A stretch of DNA of 64,000 nucleotides, taken from Podarcis vaucheri. Taxonomy: Eukaryota. This document shows positions 3,298 through 45,636 of this stretch, in pieces (positions within the stretch are counted from its first letter, which is position 1; each line of letters begins with the position of its first letter). The stretch lies in the NCBI GenBank assembly GCA_965113315.1, contig OZ220368.1. One strand, given 5' to 3'. Position numbers and translations under genes: made by a program. The notes beneath the pieces are model-generated. The model searched no databases. It worked only from the letters and a program-made list of their open reading frames with translations, and had not been told where the DNA came from.

Positions 3298-4322
3298 GAT
3301 AATGTTGTGGAGCTGTCCTTTCATCAGATTTGCAAATTGGTCCATAACAGTTCCTAGCTTAAAATCTTACTTTGGGCCCACCTGCACACATGTACAGTAT
3401 CTAGTTTAGTCACTTGTGAAGCAACAAATTTACAAACAAACAAACAAATAAAATCCATGCCTGATAGCAGATCTTTATTTTATTTACAACATTTTTAAAA
3501 TCACATTCTTTTTGTCCTGCCAGTTCATTCTCACAACAACCCTATGAGGTATGTTGGATGGAGGGATGGCGACTGGCCCAAGGGCATCTAGTGAACTTCA
3601 TGACTGTAGCAGAATTTGTATCTTGAAAGGAGGCCAGGCAAGTGCCTTTTTACAAGGCTCGTCTCCAAACAACACAAACAAATTATGCCTTCGGCAGTAG
3701 CTTTTGAAGCCAAACAAAAACTGCAAATTAATTAAGACATAGCCGGTTAGCTGAACTGTGTGTTTTATTCCAGTGGCTGCATCTGGACACTCATCAAAAC
3801 TGAGCTGGTAAACAACAGGTGTAAGAGTAGAATCGGGCAAGAACTGGACTATGGGAGCCAAAAATGTACCAAACAATTGTCATGTGAGTGCAGATGAAAC
3901 ACAAACCTTGAGACCTTTCTGTGTAACACATAAGAACCCCAAACCTGTGTGTTTATGGAAATAGATTCTTTTAGTAATCCTACAACTATTTTTTTATTTA
4001 AAAAATATTATTAGCATTCTTTTGCATGCTAAAAGTCCTTATTAAGTGTCTCTGAAAGTACTTGCAGCAAAGGACTTATACAGAGGTAAATCACACAAAA
4101 ACTCTCAAAACAGCAAACAGTAGCACACGCATAAGGGTTTTGCATAAATGATATAATTATCATAAAATTAATGAAGCAGGTCGTCCTCCTCCCAAAGTTC
4201 TGTCAGGTTGTATCACCACAAAACCTATTCCTGAAGCCTTATCTTTCCGCTGGCTCAGTCACCCCAACTCCTCAGCAGTCTTCTCAGAAGGGTTGGCACT
4301 CAGGAAACTTAAAGCCCTAGAG

Positions 4323-15460: not shown

Positions 15461-16352
15461 GTTGTTGTTTAGTTGTTTAGTCATGTCCGACTCTTTGTGA
15501 CCCCATGGACCAGAGCACACCAGGCATTCCTGTCTTCCACTGCCTCCCGCAGTTTGGTCAGACTCATGTTTGTAGCTTCGAGAACACTGTCCAACCATCT
15601 CGTCCTCTGTCGTCCCCTTCTTCTTGTGCCCTCAATCTTTCCCAACATCAGGGTCTTTTTCAGGGAGTCTTCTCTTCTCATGAGGTGGCCAAAGTATTGG
15701 AGCCTCAGCTTCACGATCTGTCCTTCCAGTGAGCACTCAGGGCTGATTTCCTTAAGAATGGATAGGTTTGATCTTCTTGCAGTCCATGGGACTCTCAAGA
15801 GTCTCCTCCAGCACCATAATTCAGAAGCATCAATTCTTCGGCAATCAGCCTTCTTTATGGTCCAGCTCTCACTTCCATACATCACTACTGGGAAAACCAT
15901 GGCTTTAACTACATGGACCTTTGTTGGTAAGGTGATGTCTCTGCTTTTTAAGATGCTGTCTAGGTTTGCCATTGCCTTTCTCCCAAGGAGCAGGCGTCTT
16001 CTAATTTCGTGACTGCTGTCACCATCTGCAGTGATCATGGAGCCCAAGAAAGTAAAATCTCTCACTGCCTCCATTTCTTCCCCTTCTGTTTGCCAGGAGG
16101 TGATGGGAGCAGTGGCCATGATCTTCGTTTTTTTGATGTTGCGCTTCAGACAATCTTTTGCGCTCTCCTCTTTCACCCTCATTAAAAGGTTATTTAATTC
16201 CTCCTCACTTTCTGCCATCAAGGTTGTGTCATCTGCATATCTGAGGTTGTTGATATTTCTTCCGGCGATCTTAATTCCAGCTTGGGATTCATCCAGCCCA
16301 GCCTTTCACATGATGAATTCTGCATATAAGTTAAATAAGCAGGGAGACAATA
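15461..16352 (-). mobile_element. 5'-truncated BovB (RTE-clade) LINE
   Basis: RT C-terminal peptide typical of BovB; (CAA)n-type tail; perfect 12-bp TSD TCCACTTCTAAT (15449-15460, 16353-16364). Confidence 0.95.
15481..16221 (-). CDS. BovB reverse transcriptase C-terminal fragment (not a standalone gene)
   Basis: 246-aa open frame with MAESEEEL..NIKKTKIMA..DFTFLGS..EIRRRLLLGRKAM..VVMYGSESWT..LQYFGHLMRR..GRQRTRWLD; NLRYADDTT lies immediately upstream in frame. Confidence 0.85.
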   Translation of the reverse strand: MMAESEEELNNLLMRVKEESAKDCLKRNIKKTKIMATAPITSWQTEGEEMEAVRDFTFLGSMITADGDSSHEIRRRLLLGRKAMANLDSILKSRDITLPTKVHVVKAMVFPVVMYGSESWTIKKADCRRIDASELWCWRRLLRVPWTARRSNLSILKEISPECSLEGQIVKLRLQYFGHLMRREDSLKKTLMLGKIEGTRRRGRQRTRWLDSVLEATNMSLTKLREAVEDRNAWCALVHGVTKSRT

Positions 16353-38480: not shown

Positions 38481-39763
38481 CAGAGCTTCTCTCGTAAAGA
38501 TTTTTTAAATGTTACAAATTTATTCTGGATATTTTACGCAAACAGCTTGTGCTCTCCGGTATGAATAACCTATATAAGCATATTAAAATTCACACCTCAA
38601 TTCCAACACTTGTTTAACCAAAGTCCCACAGAGTTCTATGAGATGGGAGTATATAGGATTGCAGCCACACAATAGCAGCTCAGAGTGGTGTTTATATTAC
38701 GGGAGGTGAGGCGCATTTTGCTAAGGTGCATTTTAGAGTGTGGCGAAAGTATGGGAAAATATGCCATTAGGAACTTGGGGAAATGGGGGAGAAGTGACTG
38801 ACGGGACTCCTCCATATCCATCTTCTGGTTCACACTTGTGAATATTGAAAGACATTTTGCTGCATTACAGGTGTAGTCTTCCGTTATTCTCTTATCTAAT
38901 GAACTGAGGCTTGTTATTGTTGGCATGCTGAATGCTTTAGAAAGGGTTAGTGATACTCCGGTTAATTTACAGGCTGTTATTCCTTACTAAAGTCCTTTTG
39001 TTGTTTGTTCTAAGTTCTACATTCAGTCCTTGTTCCCTTGCAATCACACTGCCCATAGCCAGACAAAACATTAGCCCTGGCTCCCAAGGTAGTTCTTCCA
39101 ACAATGCAAAGAAGTCTCATCAGGGTGTCAGCGATTTCCGTGGCTGCTTTTGTAATGACATTTTGATGCCAAGTGAAAACATATTTGTTTCAGTAGGGTT
39201 TTGACCTGAGTGGCTTGCAAATGATTATCCCCTTGGCTTTTTAAAGTTGATTTTTAATCTGCCACACTGTCTGTGTTTTTCTGTTCTACTCTTACATGAT
39301 ATGGTTTTTGTGTGCATTTGATAGGTGCCTTGGGGGAAAAAGGCAAGCTGGATAGAAGTATTTCATATAAACCAAGAGGAGTCTCTAGACCTGTTGAGCT
39401 TTGCTAAATTAAGGACTCTGCTCATCTAGCCAGCAACTGAACCAATCACCAGTTTTAGCGTAGGAGTTGGCCTGCCCTTTCCTTGATCTCCCAGTGGGCT
39501 CACTTGTCAGCTAGCAGGTGATAAGGCAGGAGTATACGTTTCCTGAACATTTGGGTCTGCTATTGCTGTTAAGATTCTTTGGAGTCCTTGTTCCTGCCAA
39601 CCAAACTAACAAACGGAATTATTAGCCTACCTAAACCACACTGGACAGGCCTTGAGCCTGTCTGCTTTACTTGTGTTCTGTTATTGGGTCCCATCCATAC
39701 CAAACGTTTAAAACACTCTTATACCGCTTTGACCGTCATGGCCTCCCTCCAAATAGTCCTGGC

Positions 39764-40150
39764 TGTTGGCTTTTTGCAGTATGGTAACGCTGCAGAGAGC
39801 TTGCTGGGGAGATCATGCATTAAAAAGAAAGGACTCAAAAAGTACTTAAAGGTTTTAATAAGGAAAAACAAAAACTCCATTTACACTAAATACATTAACA
39901 AACCAAACCAAACCAGACCCAACCACCAACCCATCCCCCAGGGTTATGGGAGAGCTAGGTGCTGCTCCTTATATACTCTACCCAGATGCTGACACGCCTT
40001 AATCAAATACAACTCAGCAGCACCTGCTATGTTTCACAGCTGTAAAGCTGGGTCTCGTTATCTTGCTCTGGCCCTTGCTCCGGCCCTTTAAAGACATACA
40101 CATGGAGTGGAACAATGATGAACCTTTACATTTAAAGAAACCATTCAACA
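39764..40150 (-). repeat. Copia 3' LTR
   Basis: TGTTG...CAACA; matches 43262-43648 except at one position by eye. Confidence 0.97.
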
Positions 40151-40158
40151 TTTCCCCT
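40151..40158 (-). other. Polypurine tract
   Basis: Minus-strand AGGGGAAA abutting the TG of the 3' LTR. Confidence 0.8.
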
Positions 40159-40324
40159 GCGGTTCATCCTTGTGGAACAAAAACATAAAGCATACTTTGT
40201 ACATGTCTTTCATGTGTGATGTAAACTGCAACCTATAATGTTTGGTATGTTTAAGGTACATTACCACTCTCTTAAGAGCAGAGAAACATTGCATAGTGGG
40301 CTTTTCCACACTGTGAAGCATCTT

Positions 40325-43144
40325 TTAAAAAAGCTTAACTGTTTCATATTTTACACTTGGTGAATAGCACAAATCATAATCTTCTCCTGGAATTTGTTGA
40401 AAGCCCCTAGCAACTAGTCTTGCCTTGTACCTTACAACTTCATTTTTGTCATTCATTTTAACTCTATAAACCCATTTTGAATCAATAAGTCTCATATCTG
40501 GGGTTTGTAGTACAAGAGACCAAGTGTTATGCTCTTTTAAAGAAGCTATCTCAGAGTTCATAGCTTTATACCAATTTACAGCTTGGTGCTTAGGTAAATT
40601 CTGAACATCATTGTAGTTTTTTGGCTCAAAAACCGCCTTATTGGCATACACAGTATTAAAATGTTCATCTGCGAATCGTTGTGGTTTCTGTCTCTTTCTA
40701 TCTGAACGCCTCAGTCCGGAAGTAGAGTCAGACTCCTCAGACTTAATGGGACTAAGTGAACCACTAGTTTCAGGTTGTAAATCATCACTGTCAGACTGAA
40801 GAGGTGCCTGTAGGCTAAGCTCACGGTCAGAAAACTCAAGAGGATCCAACCTCCCCTCGGGTGCCTGTGACTTTAAATCCTCAAACAAATTATCCGATTC
40901 AACAGGCTTTTTGTCTTTCCCCATTAATTCAGAATCACCATTTCCTCCTGCTGCTGCTTCTTCCTCTTCTTCCTCAGTATCATTTATACCATCAGTATCT
41001 TGGAAAACAGCAACTCCATTCCAATTTACAGTTTGTATCATGCTTCTGGTAATATGAAATTTGCCAGTTGCTTGTATGTAAATTCTGTACACCCCCTGCT
41101 GGTAGCCCATTAATTTTCCCTGAACACTACGTTCACCCAATTTCTGCTTAGCGGGATAATGCATAATTACATCTGAACCCCAAATGCGTAGGTATTTCAG
41201 ATTAGGGCGTTTTTTAAACAACTTCTCATAGGGGGTGACATCTAAACCAGAATGATAACTGCGATTTTTAACATAACAAAACACATTAAGCGCTTCAGCC
41301 CAAAAGTCTTTGGGCAGATTAGCATCATGTAGATAAGTTTTAACCCCTGCCTGCAAGTCACGCTGCACAACTTCAACAAGCCCATTTTGCCAGGGACTTC
41401 GGGGGCAAGATAACTCATGAGTAGTCCCCTGCGCTTCCAGGAATTTCTCAAAATCCTCAGAAACAAATTCCCCGCCCCGGTCAGAAAACAGGTTTTTGAT
41501 AGGTTTGTTAAAGTGTGTTTTTACCCAGTTGCAAAAAACCTTATACTTCTCAAATGCTTGGGACTTCTCAGCTATTGCATAAGTCCAACAGTATCTACTA
41601 TACTGGTCTATGAGGGTAAGCCAGTACTTAGAACCTCCTAATGATGGTGGGAGTGGCCCAACTAAATCACAATGTACACACTCAAATGGCTCAGTTACTT
41701 TCCTATCTGAGCACCTACCCTTGCGTGCAACCTTAATCTTATTCTTGCAACAGGATAGACATTGCATAAAGAATTTGCATGGTTTTAAGTTGAGGCCATT
41801 AACAATATTCTTTGTCTTAATTACATCAGCAAAATTCAGGTGTCCCAGAATTCTGTGCGCCATGTGGACACACCCAGAATGTGGTCTTACATTCCTCAAC
41901 CCCTGGCTTGACTGTGCTGTTCTGCAATTTATAGGTGATTGGGAGTAGGTGCGAAAATACAGTCTATATAAACCATCAGATTCCCGGGCATACAATAGAC
42001 GTTTGTTCCCATCGAAAAACTCACACATTGACTTTAAGAAACGCACAGTTATGCCTTGACGAGCAAAACACCTTACTGATAATAAATTGTCCACTGACGG
42101 GCAGTAAATGCAGTTTGCTATTGTAATGTTTAAAGAGTCAAGTTTAACAGTACCCCTGCCAAGCGACTGCAGGACTTGTGAATTGGCTAAATGTACATTA
42201 CCAATTTCCTCTTCGAAAGAAATAAACAAGCTTCGATCATTGCAAACGTGCTGCGATGCTCCTGAGTCGATAACAAAAGACTTCCACTTGGTACCTTTAG
42301 GTCTTTTACGATCTGTTGTCCGAGCATGAAAAGCTCGCAGTTCGTTTCTGTCTTTACGGTACGATGTCGGCTGCTGGGCTGACGACCGTGACTGACGAAC
42401 AGAAACAGGCTTGGGAGTACTTTGCTTTCTTTTGGATCTGCAGTCCCTTGCAAAATGTCCTTGCTTATTGCAGAACCAACAACGCTTTGCAGCTTTAAAT
42501 GCAGTTGTCTCACCACAGGTTTGCATATGGCGTTCCTCATTCTTTCTGGAAACAGGAGTGCTTATGGCACAAGCCTCCCTTCTATCCAACTCACCCATTA
42601 ATCTTGCCGTTACCCCTTCCACAGTTAATTGTGCTGGTGGAACGGCAGATATCTGGCTAGCTATACCATCAAAGTCCTCATTAAGGGAACAAAGGATGAT
42701 GAAAACATACTGAATATCAGGTACCTCCATGTCCCTTCGAATTAATTCGCCGCGTATTGCCTCCAGACGTCTCAAGTGTGCTGCCAAATCACCACCAGGC
42801 TGCAACTTTGTCTGGTACAACTGCTTGAAAAACATCAATGCAGACGCTGACTCTTTTCTAACATGCACTGCTGCAAGACTGTCCCACATTTCTTTGGCAG
42901 TTTTCTTATTTCTTATATAGACTACTTGCTGGTCGCTGACTGCCAAATTGATTATCGCCCTGGCTTTTGCATCTCCTTTCGACCAGGCATTAGTTACAGG
43001 GTTAGGAGGGTCATCAGTTACATAGGTCCCTACTTCTCTAGAGGTCAAAAGCGCCTCCACCCAAAAAGACCATAAACTATAGTTCTCATCTGTTAGCTGT
43101 GGGAAGACCAGAGCCTTCTCAGCTTCAGGAACCCGGTCAACCAT
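40325..43144 (-). CDS. gag-pol: Copia Gag-Pol polyprotein, truncated in early RT (Gag, CCHC knuckle, protease, integrase, RT N-terminus)
   Basis: UBN2-like Gag (W...DAKARAII..TAKEMWDSL); CWFCNKQGHFARDC; protease IDSGASQH; HHCC (HRILGH..CLSC); integrase HCDLVGP/SDRGGEF/QNGLVE; GKLMGY; RT start EPKNY..KWVYRVK..YKARLVARGFQQ. First ATG is at 43144 (the track start 43168 is TTG). Confidence 0.93.
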   Translation of the reverse strand: MVDRVPEAEKALVFPQLTDENYSLWSFWVEALLTSREVGTYVTDDPPNPVTNAWSKGDAKARAIINLAVSDQQVVYIRNKKTAKEMWDSLAAVHVRKESASALMFFKQLYQTKLQPGGDLAAHLRRLEAIRGELIRRDMEVPDIQYVFIILCSLNEDFDGIASQISAVPPAQLTVEGVTARLMGELDRREACAISTPVSRKNEERHMQTCGETTAFKAAKRCWFCNKQGHFARDCRSKRKQSTPKPVSVRQSRSSAQQPTSYRKDRNELRAFHARTTDRKRPKGTKWKSFVIDSGASQHVCNDRSLFISFEEEIGNVHLANSQVLQSLGRGTVKLDSLNITIANCIYCPSVDNLLSVRCFARQGITVRFLKSMCEFFDGNKRLLYARESDGLYRLYFRTYSQSPINCRTAQSSQGLRNVRPHSGCVHMAHRILGHLNFADVIKTKNIVNGLNLKPCKFFMQCLSCCKNKIKVARKGRCSDRKVTEPFECVHCDLVGPLPPSLGGSKYWLTLIDQYSRYCWTYAIAEKSQAFEKYKVFCNWVKTHFNKPIKNLFSDRGGEFVSEDFEKFLEAQGTTHELSCPRSPWQNGLVEVVQRDLQAGVKTYLHDANLPKDFWAEALNVFCYVKNRSYHSGLDVTPYEKLFKKRPNLKYLRIWGSDVIMHYPAKQKLGERSVQGKLMGYQQGVYRIYIQATGKFHITRSMIQTVNWNGVAVFQDTDGINDTEEEEEEAAAGGNGDSELMGKDKKPVESDNLFEDLKSQAPEGRLDPLEFSDRELSLQAPLQSDSDDLQPETSGSLSPIKSEESDSTSGLRRSDRKRQKPQRFADEHFNTVYANKAVFEPKNYNDVQNLPKHQAVNWYKAMNSEIASLKEHNTWSLVLQTPDMRLIDSKWVYRVKMNDKNEVVRYKARLVARGFQQIPGEDYDLCYSPSVKYETVKLF

Positions 43145-43241
43145 TCTGGAACTCTTCCAGACCCACAAAAACTACGCTAACAGGAGAAGGAGTTTTCAAA
43201 CCTTTCTCAGAGTCCAAAAATATGCAGTCATCCACTCAGCA

Positions 43242-43256
43242 GCTGGGCCCATAACC
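43242..43256 (-). other. Primer-binding site complementary to the 5' half (anticodon arm) of initiator tRNA-Met
   Basis: Sense GGTTATGGGCCCAGC, 5 nt downstream of the 5' LTR; complement of tRNAiMet GCUGGGCCCAUAACC; same PBS type as Drosophila copia. Confidence 0.9.
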
Positions 43257-43261
43257 AAAGA

Positions 43262-43648
43262 TATTGGCTTTTTGCAGTATGGTAACGCTGCAGAGAGCTT
43301 GCTGGGGAGATCATGCATTAAAAAGAAAGGACTCAAAAAGTACTTAAAGGTTTTAATAAGGAAAAACAAAAACTCCATTTACACTAAATACATTAACAAA
43401 CCAAACCAAACCAGACCCAACCACCAACCCATCCCCCAGGGTTATGGGAGAGCTAGGTGCTGCTCCTTATATACTCTACCCAGATGCTGACACGCCTTAA
43501 TCAAATACAACTCAGCAGCACCTGCTATGTTTCACAGCTGTAAAGCTGGGTCTCGTTATCTTGCTCTGGCCCTTGCTCCGGCCCTTTAAAGACATACACA
43601 TGGAGTGGAACAATGATGAACCTTTACATTTAAAGAAACCATTCAACA
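43262..43648 (-). repeat. Copia 5' LTR
   Basis: 387 bp; its inner end reads ..CCAATA rather than ..CCAACA, the only LTR-LTR difference seen. Confidence 0.97.
43467..43473 (-). promoter_or_regulatory. Putative TATA box of the Copia LTR
   Basis: TATATAAG on the sense strand in mid-LTR, with candidate ATTAAA poly(A) signal ~115 nt downstream. Confidence 0.6.
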
Positions 43649-45636
43649 CTGGCAACTGTAGTTTGTTAAGGGTGTTGGGAATTGTAACTTATTGAGGGGC
43701 GCCACCCTTAAACTACTTGTTCCCAGGATTCTTTAGAGGAAGCCATGACTGTTAAAATGGTATAATAATGCCTCAAATGTATGGTGTGCGTGTGACCTAT
43801 ATTCAGCTGCACTGGGGCGAATTTTGCAAATATTGATACCAGCCTTTTGTTGTTGGTTGACAAGAGCCTTGCTGTATCAGACCAAAGGCCTTAGTCCTGT
43901 TTCCCACAAAGGCCGATCAGATACCTCTGGGAAGGCTACTAGCTGGACATGAGGGCAACAGCCCTACCGCTTTCTTTCTCTCAAGAGCAGTCCTATCTAA
44001 AAGCTTTTGATTTCCTCAGCTGCAGTGATCATTCCAGCGTAATGCTGGAGCCCACAGTCTTTGGGGACAAAAGCAAATGCATTAATGACTCAACCATATA
44101 GTCCATAAGCAGATTTTGGTAGTTACCAGCTGATATTGCTTGGCAGGGAAAGCCCAGAGTTCTTTGTACATACTCCACACATCTTTCCTCCGATTCAGAG
44201 GGCTGGCTGGCATTGTACACTGTGAAATAATATGCTAGCTATCAAAACAACGTGGCGAAAGCAGTGTGTGCAGCCTATGGGCTCATTAACATCCACTGAC
44301 TATGTGGCGTGACAGGGAAGCACTTGAAGTGCTGGAGGATCCCTTCAATTAAGAGCCAGCGCAGCGATTATAGCCCATCGTTTCCTGAAGGCTTCTGAAT
44401 GGCATGGATTAGAGGGGAAGAGAAAAGTGGTTAATTGTAATGAGTGTGCATCATCCAGCACAATGTGACCAACTGCTCTATTGCCAGGGTCCAGGAAGGA
44501 ACCAGTCCCAGTCTGAGCCAGCTGCTTGGCCTGTACATGTCAAGTCAGGCTGGCTTGGCTTGGCAGCTTGCCACAAACTTCTGAAGCATGAGGACTAATC
44601 TGGGGGGAAATTGTTGTAATGTATGCAAAGAGCCATTACACTAGCTGCAGAGCAGCATAATACAAATGATTATGCATGGATGAGGGTACAGTCTTAGCCA
44701 GCTCAAAACACTGCCTCATGAATTTTGTGGATGCAGGAGTTGGAGAGCAGGCTGGCGGAAGTTTTGTGGCTGTCTCTTGTAATCTTTTAACCAGACAAAG
44801 CTGCTCTCTTATGAGGAATACCGTTCTAACCTGCATGGGTTCATTGATCTAGTATGTACGGCCCATTGGTTTTGGCTGAAAACGCACAAGATTAAATTAA
44901 TGTTTGCAAAGCACCTCTGTGGCTTAGCATCTGTTTTCCATGATGGCTTTGCCCCTGTAGCCTTGAAACTACAGACTGAGAGTAATGTGCTGAAATGTTT
45001 TATTCCTTAGGAAATGATGCTAGCCAGGCTGGTATTTCCCCAAGAATGAGTTTATGGAACTTTGTGCAGGATGGGTGTTTTGATGCGTTTTGATGATGCG
45101 ATGCAGTAAACCACCAAAGGCGATTTCTGCTCAGCCTTCTCTTGCTCTGTTACCCTCTCTATGTTATGGTTGCAAAGCATGTTTTTTCTGCATGTTAGCT
45201 TTCTTGCTTTGGCACTGACTCCCTCATGGGCTATGCCTTCCTCAAGACCTCCTGCGGTCATCCACCATACAAAAATTCCTTGGCTCAAATTATAAGATAA
45301 GTGGACAAAATAAAGTTTTTCACTTCATCCCTGCATCAATCTGCAAAGCCCCTCTGGAGGGTCAGGGGAGCAGGGCTCTACTGACGGAGGGGGAATTATC
45401 TCATTCTTCAGGGTCCTCTTCTTGTAACTTCTCCTGTGTCTAATTTTTGTGTGTGTGTGGCCTTGGTAAAGTAAAATCAGGACTTGGGTAATAGCACTGA
45501 AATAAAAGCAGCTAGCCTCAATGCAGTTTGCAAATTTTAATGACGTAGCTGTCATCTGCAACAGTGGAGGGAGCTTCTCACTCATAACAATTGCTTGCTG
45601 TACTACAAGCCTCACATTGGGCAAAATATATTTGCT

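What the first reader, a model, noticed from the sequence alone, without database searches (positions are those of the whole stretch)
40151..40345. Very young Copia copy with intact Gag-PR-IN but RT core and RNase H removed by two deletions
Seen: the frame is open for ~940 codons and stops at ..SVKYETVKLF*, before the RT motifs DVKTAFL, LYGLKQ and YVDD. A few codons later the same frame gives SVEKPTMQCFSALKRVVMYLKHTKHYRLQF, which resembles the Copia RT C-terminal end (P...H..A.KRV.RYLK.T). The PPT follows within ~70 nt with no RNase H motifs (DADW, EAEY, ADIFTK). Both reverse-transcription enzymes are therefore lost, while particle proteins, integrase and all cis signals remain and the LTRs are 386/387 identical. 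Inference: the deletions probably predate this insertion. That would make it a non-autonomous lineage that builds particles and supplies integrase but borrows RT in trans, and it might also interfere with the autonomous parent.
Basis: partly seen in the sequence, partly recalled or inferred. Interest (0 to 1): 0.7.

Follow-up and report, generated by a model that had tools for sequence, protein, structure and literature searches.

The report
Freeloading RT-less Copia outnumbers its helper
About two thirds of the copies of a young jumping-gene family in this lizard-like genome have lost reverse transcriptase and yet keep spreading, likely by sharing particles with complete copies, with which they swap sequence freely.

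Summary
Confirmed, and not a one-off. The window holds a Ty1/copia element (LTRs 386/387 identical, 5-bp TSD) with an open gag-protease-integrase frame. A 644-nt deletion removes the RT core and a 439-nt deletion removes RNase H. The 644-nt deletion is at 102 fetched loci, beside 67 RT-intact loci; among 100 PBS-bearing places, 62 were RT-deleted and 31 RT-intact. Four deletions have amplified (644, 439, 422, 1327 nt), all inside RT/RNase H; the one gag-through-RT deletion found is single-copy. It is not a separate lineage: deleted and intact copies share allele frequencies across gag-integrase, linkage fades within 50-100 nt, and single copies are mosaics, while paired LTRs stay about 99.6% identical. 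This points to co-packaging and template switching with helper RNA. Selection on Gag/integrase in cis is suggested, not shown; interference with the parent is untested. Non-autonomous LTR elements and copy-choice recombination are known, and the scan noted RT-less elements in fungi before (judged ordinary). New here: a vertebrate family where RT looks like a shared good. Interest 0.5.

The parts
43649..43653 (.). Target-site duplication, 5' side (5 bp)
   Evidence: identical to 39759-39763
43262..43648 (-). 5' LTR, 387 nt; its terminal CA carries the one LTR mismatch (43263)
43243..43256 (-). Primer-binding site, complementary to nt 26-39 (anticodon arm) of a tRNA-Met gene of this genome, not to its 3' end
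   Evidence: the same PBS flank in 41 of 41 two-LTR RT-intact loci and 43 of 52 two-LTR window-type loci
42280..43144 (-). gag with CCHC zinc knuckle (about 42440-42481), intact
   Evidence: PF14223, PF00098; C-C-H-C present
42020..42279 (-). Protease, catalytic Asp present
   Evidence: PF22936
41040..41975 (-). Integrase (zinc-finger region, D-D-E core, SH3-like domain), intact
   Evidence: PF13976 (weak, below cut-off), PF00665, PF25597; D, D, E present
40325..40530 (-). RT N-terminal remnant (RVT_2 positions 2-66), ending in a stop caused by a 1-nt loss shared with one other insertion
40305..40309 (-). Junction 1: 644 nt of RT core missing, 5-nt microhomology
40218..40304 (-). About 90-nt remnant of the RT C-terminal end (untranslated)
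40217..40217 (-). Junction 2: 439 nt of RNase H missing
40151..40216 (-). Last codons of the pol frame and the polypurine tract (40151-40162)
39764..40150 (-). 3' LTR, 387 nt
39759..39763 (.). Target-site duplication, 3' side

Best explanation
The element is one of about a hundred copies of a young Ty1/copia family that carry the same RT deletion, and these copies likely spread by being packaged together with full-length RNA whose reverse transcriptase copies them and switches between the two templates. Shown: the deletions are shared by many separate insertions; an RT-intact parent with the same LTR, PBS and PPT is present and equally young; gag-PR-IN alleles are at the same frequencies in both classes; single copies are mosaics. 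Inferred: each deletion arose by a template jump at a short repeat during reverse transcription; the deleted RNA is translated into Gag-PR-IN and joins mixed particles; RT/RNase H comes from helper polyprotein. The deletion behaves as an allele in one recombining population, not as a lineage. Gag-PR-IN stays intact partly because recombination refreshes it from selected copies, and probably also because its translation helps the deleted RNA get packaged (about 45%).
For: Counts: 102 fetched loci with the 644-nt deletion (63 with the 439-nt, 22 with the 422-nt, 17 with no second deletion) and 67 RT-intact; 94 and 59 after removing duplicated insertions. A 1327-nt deletion is at 6 loci. In the first 100 of 189 PBS places listed: 62 RT-deleted (61 mapped, 1 likely), 31 RT-intact, 6 truncated, 1 gag-through-RT deleted. 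TSDs perfect in 41 of 52, 9 of 16 and 5 of 9 two-LTR deleted loci, and 35 of 41 RT-intact. Microhomologies of 5, 8 and 5 nt at the 644-, 422- and 1327-nt junctions. The tree of 134 copies on gag-IN is star-like with classes intermixed. For 93 non-CpG sites in 136 copies, r2 falls from 0.21 (<10 nt) to 0.024 (50-100 nt) to 0.01 (permutation p 0.001); r2 with deletion status is 0.003-0.007 over ORF 0-2600 and 0.14 within 75 nt of the junction; pairwise distance is 3.1% within deleted, 3.2% between classes, 3.3% within intact. L141 is identical to L155 over 0-300, to L182 over 300-600, one base from RT-intact L230 over 600-900 and identical or one base from L135 over 1500-2835. Paired LTRs differ by 0.2-0.5% against 3.2% plus 2.4 indels between copies, which argues against gene conversion after insertion. 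Purifying selection: N:S 46:87 in common gag-PR-IN variants against 243:109 in singletons of deleted copies; 38:41 in rare variants shared only by deleted copies (p 0.0006), against 15:5 in the RT remnant (p 0.044). Copied stops, frameshifts and start losses with a shared haplotype: 4 of 6-7 events lie in the 280-nt RT remnant, 10% of the target (p 0.001-0.003). Contigs of public runs of coded organisms A, B and F join across the 644-nt deletion, C shows its junction as a loose end, A and C join across the 439-nt one, B and F across the 422-register one.
Against: No particle, cDNA or mobility data. In the RNA reads laid (organism B, three raw-read runs, 6-12% of each read, tissue unknown) the two bulk runs show mostly sense-strand reads along the whole element including the RT core, and no 644-nt junction was listed; that junction contig had depth of only 5 in a DNA run of organism B. 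Cis dependence on Gag is not absolute: two separate insertions share loss of the start codon (L141, L155), two share a zinc-knuckle Cys change (L265, L266), two share a stop in the IN-RT linker (L136, L148), each on a shared haplotype. Rare deleted-only variants have the same N:S as rare variants shared across classes (38:41 vs 51:65, p 0.66), so selection in RT-intact copies plus recombination can explain much of the signal. Only one assembly was analysed in depth. Recurrent mutation adds some homoplasy (CpG stops, a poly-A slip).
Confidence: 0.85

Rival explanations
1. Pure passenger: the deleted RNA needs none of its own proteins. Gag-PR-IN looks intact only because the copies are young and are refreshed by recombination with selected full-length RNA.
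For: Gag-damaged alleles were copied at least three times. N:S of deleted-only and mixed rare variants does not differ. Gag-PR-IN is intact in 55 of 86 deleted and 24 of 43 RT-intact copies, a similar share. One gag-through-RT deleted copy with a matching TSD exists.
Against: All four amplified deletions lie in RT/RNase H and none in the 2.5 kb of gag-PR-IN (crude odds 0.004); the gag-deleted junction is at 1 locus only; lesion density in deleted copies is 1.0 per kb in the RT remnant against 0.21 per kb upstream. RNA signals inside gag or integrase could explain the first two points without any protein. This rival shares the trans-RT core of the best explanation and differs only on the cis step.
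Confidence: 0.45
2. A separate non-autonomous lineage that split from the parent and evolves on its own.
For: The same 644-nt register in all 102 loci, and deleted-only alleles within about 60 nt of the junction (ORF positions 2788, 2831), fit a single origin.
Against: No clade in the gag-IN tree; no frequency difference between classes beyond about 100 nt from the junction.
Confidence: 0.05
3. DNA-level copying (segmental duplication, ectopic gene conversion) spread the deletion and mixed the sequences.
For: 16 of 177 loci are duplicates of another insertion, and some two-LTR loci lack a matching TSD (11 of 52 window-type).
Against: 58 distinct right flanks among 63 window-type loci; TSDs differ; paired LTRs are about ten times more alike than LTRs of different copies.
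Confidence: 0.07
4. Assembly collapse or a deletion private to this locus.
For: None found.
Against: 86 and 63 pattern hits; junctions in contigs of independent runs.
Confidence: 0.01

Closest known systems
Mouse IAP I-delta-1 subtype (PMC1331978, PMC7472028; passages read)
   Same: [quoted passage not shown]
   Different: IAP is a betaretrovirus-like ERV and I-delta-1 is a minor fraction of IAP copies; here the element is Ty1/copia, gag-PR-IN is whole, only RT/RNase H is lost, and deleted copies are the majority. Recalled, not read (paper not held): I-delta-1 makes a Gag-integrase fusion whose translation is needed for its mobility.
ONSEN/COPIA78 and Ty1 'clan' recombination (PMC5668417, abstract and passages; PMC6894440, passages)
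   Same: New insertions are mosaics of co-packaged family members, and defective members take part through both parasitic competition and recombination.
   Different: Those studies follow induced bursts with a few parents carrying point defects; here a large deletion allele sits at about 60% of a natural vertebrate family and is in near linkage equilibrium with everything more than about 100 nt away.
Non-autonomous LTR elements with coding remnants: TR-GAG and partly decayed POL families (PMC13570524, passages); BARE-2 and soybean SNRE/SARE (recalled; SNRE title seen in reference lists only)
   Same: Amplified LTR elements that keep part of the coding region and borrow the rest.
   Different: TR-GAG keeps GAG/PROT only; BARE-2 lacks Gag (recalled). 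Here integrase with its D-D-E triad is kept in 84 of 88 deleted copies and the partner is the same family at about 97% identity.
Defective-interfering genomes of RNA viruses and retroviruses (recalled)
   Same: Shorter genomes made by polymerase jumps at short repeats, nested second deletions, dependence on helper polymerase.
   Different: Interference with the helper is not shown here; both classes are equally young.

Membership tests
Ty1/copia LTR retrotransposon | Domain order gag-PR-IN-RT-RNase H in one frame | tested here: met
   Pfam order in the window ORF; RT-intact relatives with ORFs of about 1354 aa
Ty1/copia LTR retrotransposon | LTRs with TG...CA ends, 5-bp TSD, PBS, PPT | tested here: met
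   the window's 5' LTR has one change in its terminal CA
Ty1/copia LTR retrotransposon | Priming by an internal part of tRNA-Met, as recalled for Drosophila copia | tested here: met
   PBS is complementary to tRNA-Met nt 26-39 of 72; whether it is the initiator tRNA, and priming itself, not tested
Non-autonomous LTR retrotransposon | Lacks an essential enzyme | tested here: met
   RT core and RNase H deleted
Non-autonomous LTR retrotransposon | Amplified by retrotransposition after the loss | tested here: met
   same junction, different TSDs and flanks, near-identical LTR pairs
Non-autonomous LTR retrotransposon | Autonomous partner sharing cis signals | tested here: met
   67 RT-intact loci; 21 of 43 well-covered ones have a whole open frame; same PBS and PPT
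Non-autonomous LTR retrotransposon | Forms its own subfamily or clade | tested here: not met
   intermixed tree, no frequency difference in gag-IN
Non-autonomous LTR retrotransposon | Mobilised in trans in an assay | not testable with these tools
   needs particles or cDNA
TR-GAG | Keeps GAG/PROT only, lacks the enzymes including integrase | tested here: not met
   integrase present and intact; definition from PMC13570524 passages
Defective-interfering element | Lowers helper replication | not testable with these tools
   62:31 excess of deleted copies but equal LTR ages
Spliced subgenomic RNA retro-copy | GT...AG ends of the missing segment | tested here: not met
   644-, 439- and 1327-nt segments have no AG end in any placement seen; the 422-nt one could be read GT...AG only because its 8-nt repeat contains AGGT

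The most novel reading that the evidence does not exclude
In this family reverse transcriptase is a public good and Gag-PR-integrase is a private one: RT-less 'cheater' genomes are selected to keep translating their own Gag-PR-IN, have lost RT/RNase H four separate times, now outnumber helpers 2:1, persist across related species as an allele in one sexual population, and RT-positive, RNase H-negative recombinants are purged (0 of 67) because a polymerase without RNase H blocks the particle. It would be a natural, countable test of cis versus trans action for each retroelement protein in a vertebrate germ line.
Probability: 0.35. Interest if true: 0.72.

Novelty: new variant of a known kind. 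Interest (0 to 1): 0.5.

Why it matters
Which retroelement proteins act in cis and which in trans decides which defective copies can spread. This family gives about 170 dated, paired copies in which that question can be counted rather than assayed. It also shows that labelling a deleted subfamily as a lineage, or dating it and reading selection from a tree, misleads when co-packaged RNAs recombine every few hundred bases. If the cis step is wrong, it remains a clear vertebrate example of a helper-dependent deletion allele overtaking its parent.

Tried and rejected
A PF07727 search of the genome returned other Copia families (about 30% identity), not the parent; the parent was found with a junction-excluding pattern. 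The translation was out of frame and was not used. A first binomial test (6 of 7 shared lesions in the RT remnant) was dropped after the haplotype check and replaced by 4 of 6-7. A junction-anchored block test had too few variants to decide (core N:S 2:2). Splicing as the origin of the deletions was rejected except as a weak option for the 422-nt one. No stable hairpin at the clustered 3' breakpoints (z +1.25). Rows dropped: 16 duplicate insertions, L124 (junction 1 outside the fetched stretch), L210 and L270 (poor alignments) and copies with under 2300-2500 aligned gag-IN bases, leaving 124, 129, 134 (duplicates kept) or 136 copies. Only the first 100 of 189 PBS places were listed and classified. 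No RNA holder on record was listed by the run search; RNA reads of organism B showed no deletion junction, which is no evidence on expression in this genome. Literature: 10 full-text searches, aimed at RT-less, integrase-keeping or cis-preference cases, each found 0 papers; some searches gave listings. The library lacks most subscription papers and Repbase-type annotations, so absence from print is not shown. Three look-ups by id were not held. No supplements were read. Pfam on eight other window ORFs found only one LINE-type RT fragment.

Full report
Observation. The window holds a minus-strand Ty1/copia element from 39764 to 43648 with 387-nt LTRs that differ at one base and a 5-bp TSD. One frame runs 939 codons from the Met at 43144 to a stop at 40325-40327. 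Pfam gives gag, zinc knuckle, protease, integrase, SH3 and RVT_2 positions 2-66 of 244. The CCHC, protease Asp and integrase D-D-E residues are present. The PBS is complementary to nt 26-39 of a tRNA-Met gene of this genome. The host looks like a lizard; that label comes from earlier scan notes on this genome and from recalled repeat types, not from a test of mine.

The parent. A pattern that excludes the deleted junction found 66 loci; many carry frames of about 1354 aa. Against these natural copies, the window lacks 644 nt of the RT core (5-nt microhomology, window 40305-40309) and 439 nt of RNase H (window 40217). Both lengths are out of frame. Most deleted copies read on for a few codons to ..CGKAHYAMFLCS*; the window's earlier stop comes from a 1-nt loss seen in 3 of 30 top loci, which are two insertions.

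The deletions are replicated. Junction 1 matched 86 places and junction 2 matched 63, with 0 control matches. I fetched 180 stretches. With the window, the mapped classes were: 644+439 nt, 63 loci; 644+422 nt, 22; 644 nt only, 17; RT-intact, 67; 1327 nt, 3 fetched of 6 found; 1291 nt, 1. Perfect 5-bp TSDs were found in 41 of 52 two-LTR window-type loci, with 37 different sequences, and 58 of 63 right flanks are distinct. A less biased census used the first 100 of 189 PBS places: 62 RT-deleted (one inferred from its RNase H junction only), 31 RT-intact, 6 truncated, and 1 deleted from gag through RT, whose junction occurs once in the genome. LTR divergence in TSD-bearing, non-duplicate copies is 0.41% (RT-intact, n 34), 0.32% (n 37) and 0.18% (n 9) for the two double-deleted classes; the difference is not significant. 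Contigs of public runs from four coded organisms show the same junctions, which rules out an assembly artefact and suggests that the alleles are older than, or shared across, those species labels.

One population, not two lineages. A tree of 134 copies on ORF positions 0-2830 is star-like, with deleted and intact copies intermixed. Of 225 variable sites, those in gag-PR-IN have nearly the same frequency in both classes; only sites within about 60 nt of junction 1 are linked to it. With 93 non-CpG sites in 136 copies, r2 decays from 0.21 to 0.024 by 50-100 nt and to 0.01 beyond (permutation p 0.001), and 93-97% of pairs more than 25 nt apart show all four gametes. Single copies are mosaics: L141 matches four different copies in turn, one of them RT-intact, and the window shares only its last 270 nt before the junction with L180, differing at 80 sites upstream. 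Paired LTRs are about ten times more alike than LTRs of different copies, so most mixing happened before or during insertion. By established retroelement biology this means co-packaged RNAs and template switching, as reported for ONSEN/COPIA78 and Ty1 (PMC5668417, abstract and passages; PMC6894440, passages). This step is inferred, not observed.

Is gag-PR-IN selected in the deleted copies? For: all four amplified deletions lie in RT/RNase H (crude odds 0.004); lesion density in deleted copies is 1.0 per kb in the RT remnant against 0.21 per kb upstream; 4 of 6-7 copied null events fall in that 280-nt remnant; rare variants shared only by deleted copies have N:S 38:41 against 243:109 for singletons. 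Against: the same ratio holds for variants shared across classes (p 0.66); recombination repairs distant lesions faster than junction-linked ones; a lost start codon, a zinc-knuckle Cys change and a linker stop were each copied into two insertions; RNA signals could protect gag and integrase sequence without any protein. I put cis selection at about 45%.

Two unexplained patterns. None of 67 RT-intact loci carries either RNase H deletion, although the three junction-1 variants are spread over all three RNase H states among deleted copies (chi-square p 0.14), so crossovers in the 94-nt middle piece do occur. Selection against RT-positive, RNase H-negative genomes is one reading; the youth of the second deletions and the short homology is another. 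Also, the 3' ends of four independent deletions fall within 12 nt, about 65-75 nt before the 3' LTR, with no stable hairpin there.

Expression. In two bulk RNA runs of a related coded organism the family is read mostly on the sense strand along its whole length; no 644-nt junction was listed. This says nothing about the deleted class in this genome.

What is known. Helper-dependent deleted LTR elements are well known: IAP I-delta-1 needs complementation in trans and causes most new IAP insertions (PMC1331978 and PMC7472028, passages), and plant surveys list families with GAG/PROT only or decayed POL domains (PMC13570524, passages). Five searches aimed at an RT-less, integrase-keeping or cis-preference case found no paper; the library is incomplete. 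The scan noted similar RT-less elements in fungi and judged them ordinary; no look-alike of this protein was found.

Verdict. Real, replicated and largely of a known kind. What lifts it is the scale and the clean population picture: RT-less genomes are the majority, arose several times, and recombine freely with their helper. New variant of a known kind, interest 0.5.

Noticed in passing
L251-L253 (G000:C1:102459200-102463400, C17:117755600-117759900, C26:69321800-69326000) and three more places: A second, independent RT-less class: one 1327-nt deletion at a 5-nt repeat removes nearly all of RT and RNase H; two of three fetched copies keep a 919-aa gag-PR-IN frame.
   Followed up: partly
All RT-intact loci L185-L250, L269: None carries the 439- or 422-nt RNase H deletion (0 of 67), although crossovers in the piece between the two junctions do occur among deleted copies.
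   Followed up: partly
ORF positions 4006-4018 on the L212 ruler (near window 40217): The 3' ends of four independent deletions cluster within 12 nt, about 65-75 nt upstream of the 3' LTR; a jump hot spot or the edge of a required cis signal.
   Followed up: partly
L255 (G000:C19:93999700-94001700): A 1.3-kb mini element deleted from the leader through RT, with both LTRs and a matching 5-bp TSD; found once only.
   Followed up: yes
L141 and L155; L265 and L266; L136 and L148: Pairs of separate insertions share a lost start codon, a zinc-knuckle Cys change, or a linker stop, so damaged gag-IN RNA can be copied at least once.
   Followed up: yes
G000 genome-wide: Other Copia families with open frames of 1300-1500 aa are abundant (2373 RVT_2 candidates, 150 scored), about 30% identical to this family; contig C41 (41 Mb) holds many of them and many older or duplicated copies of this family.
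   Followed up: no
L116-L119 (G000:C17:8.71-8.75 Mb), L150-L152 (C26:14.37-14.48 Mb), L231-L232 (C33:41.89 Mb): Tandem or locally duplicated copies, some sharing an LTR.
   Followed up: no
window 15484-16305 (-): LINE-type reverse transcriptase fragment (PF00078, E 6e-7), unrelated to the finding.
   Followed up: no
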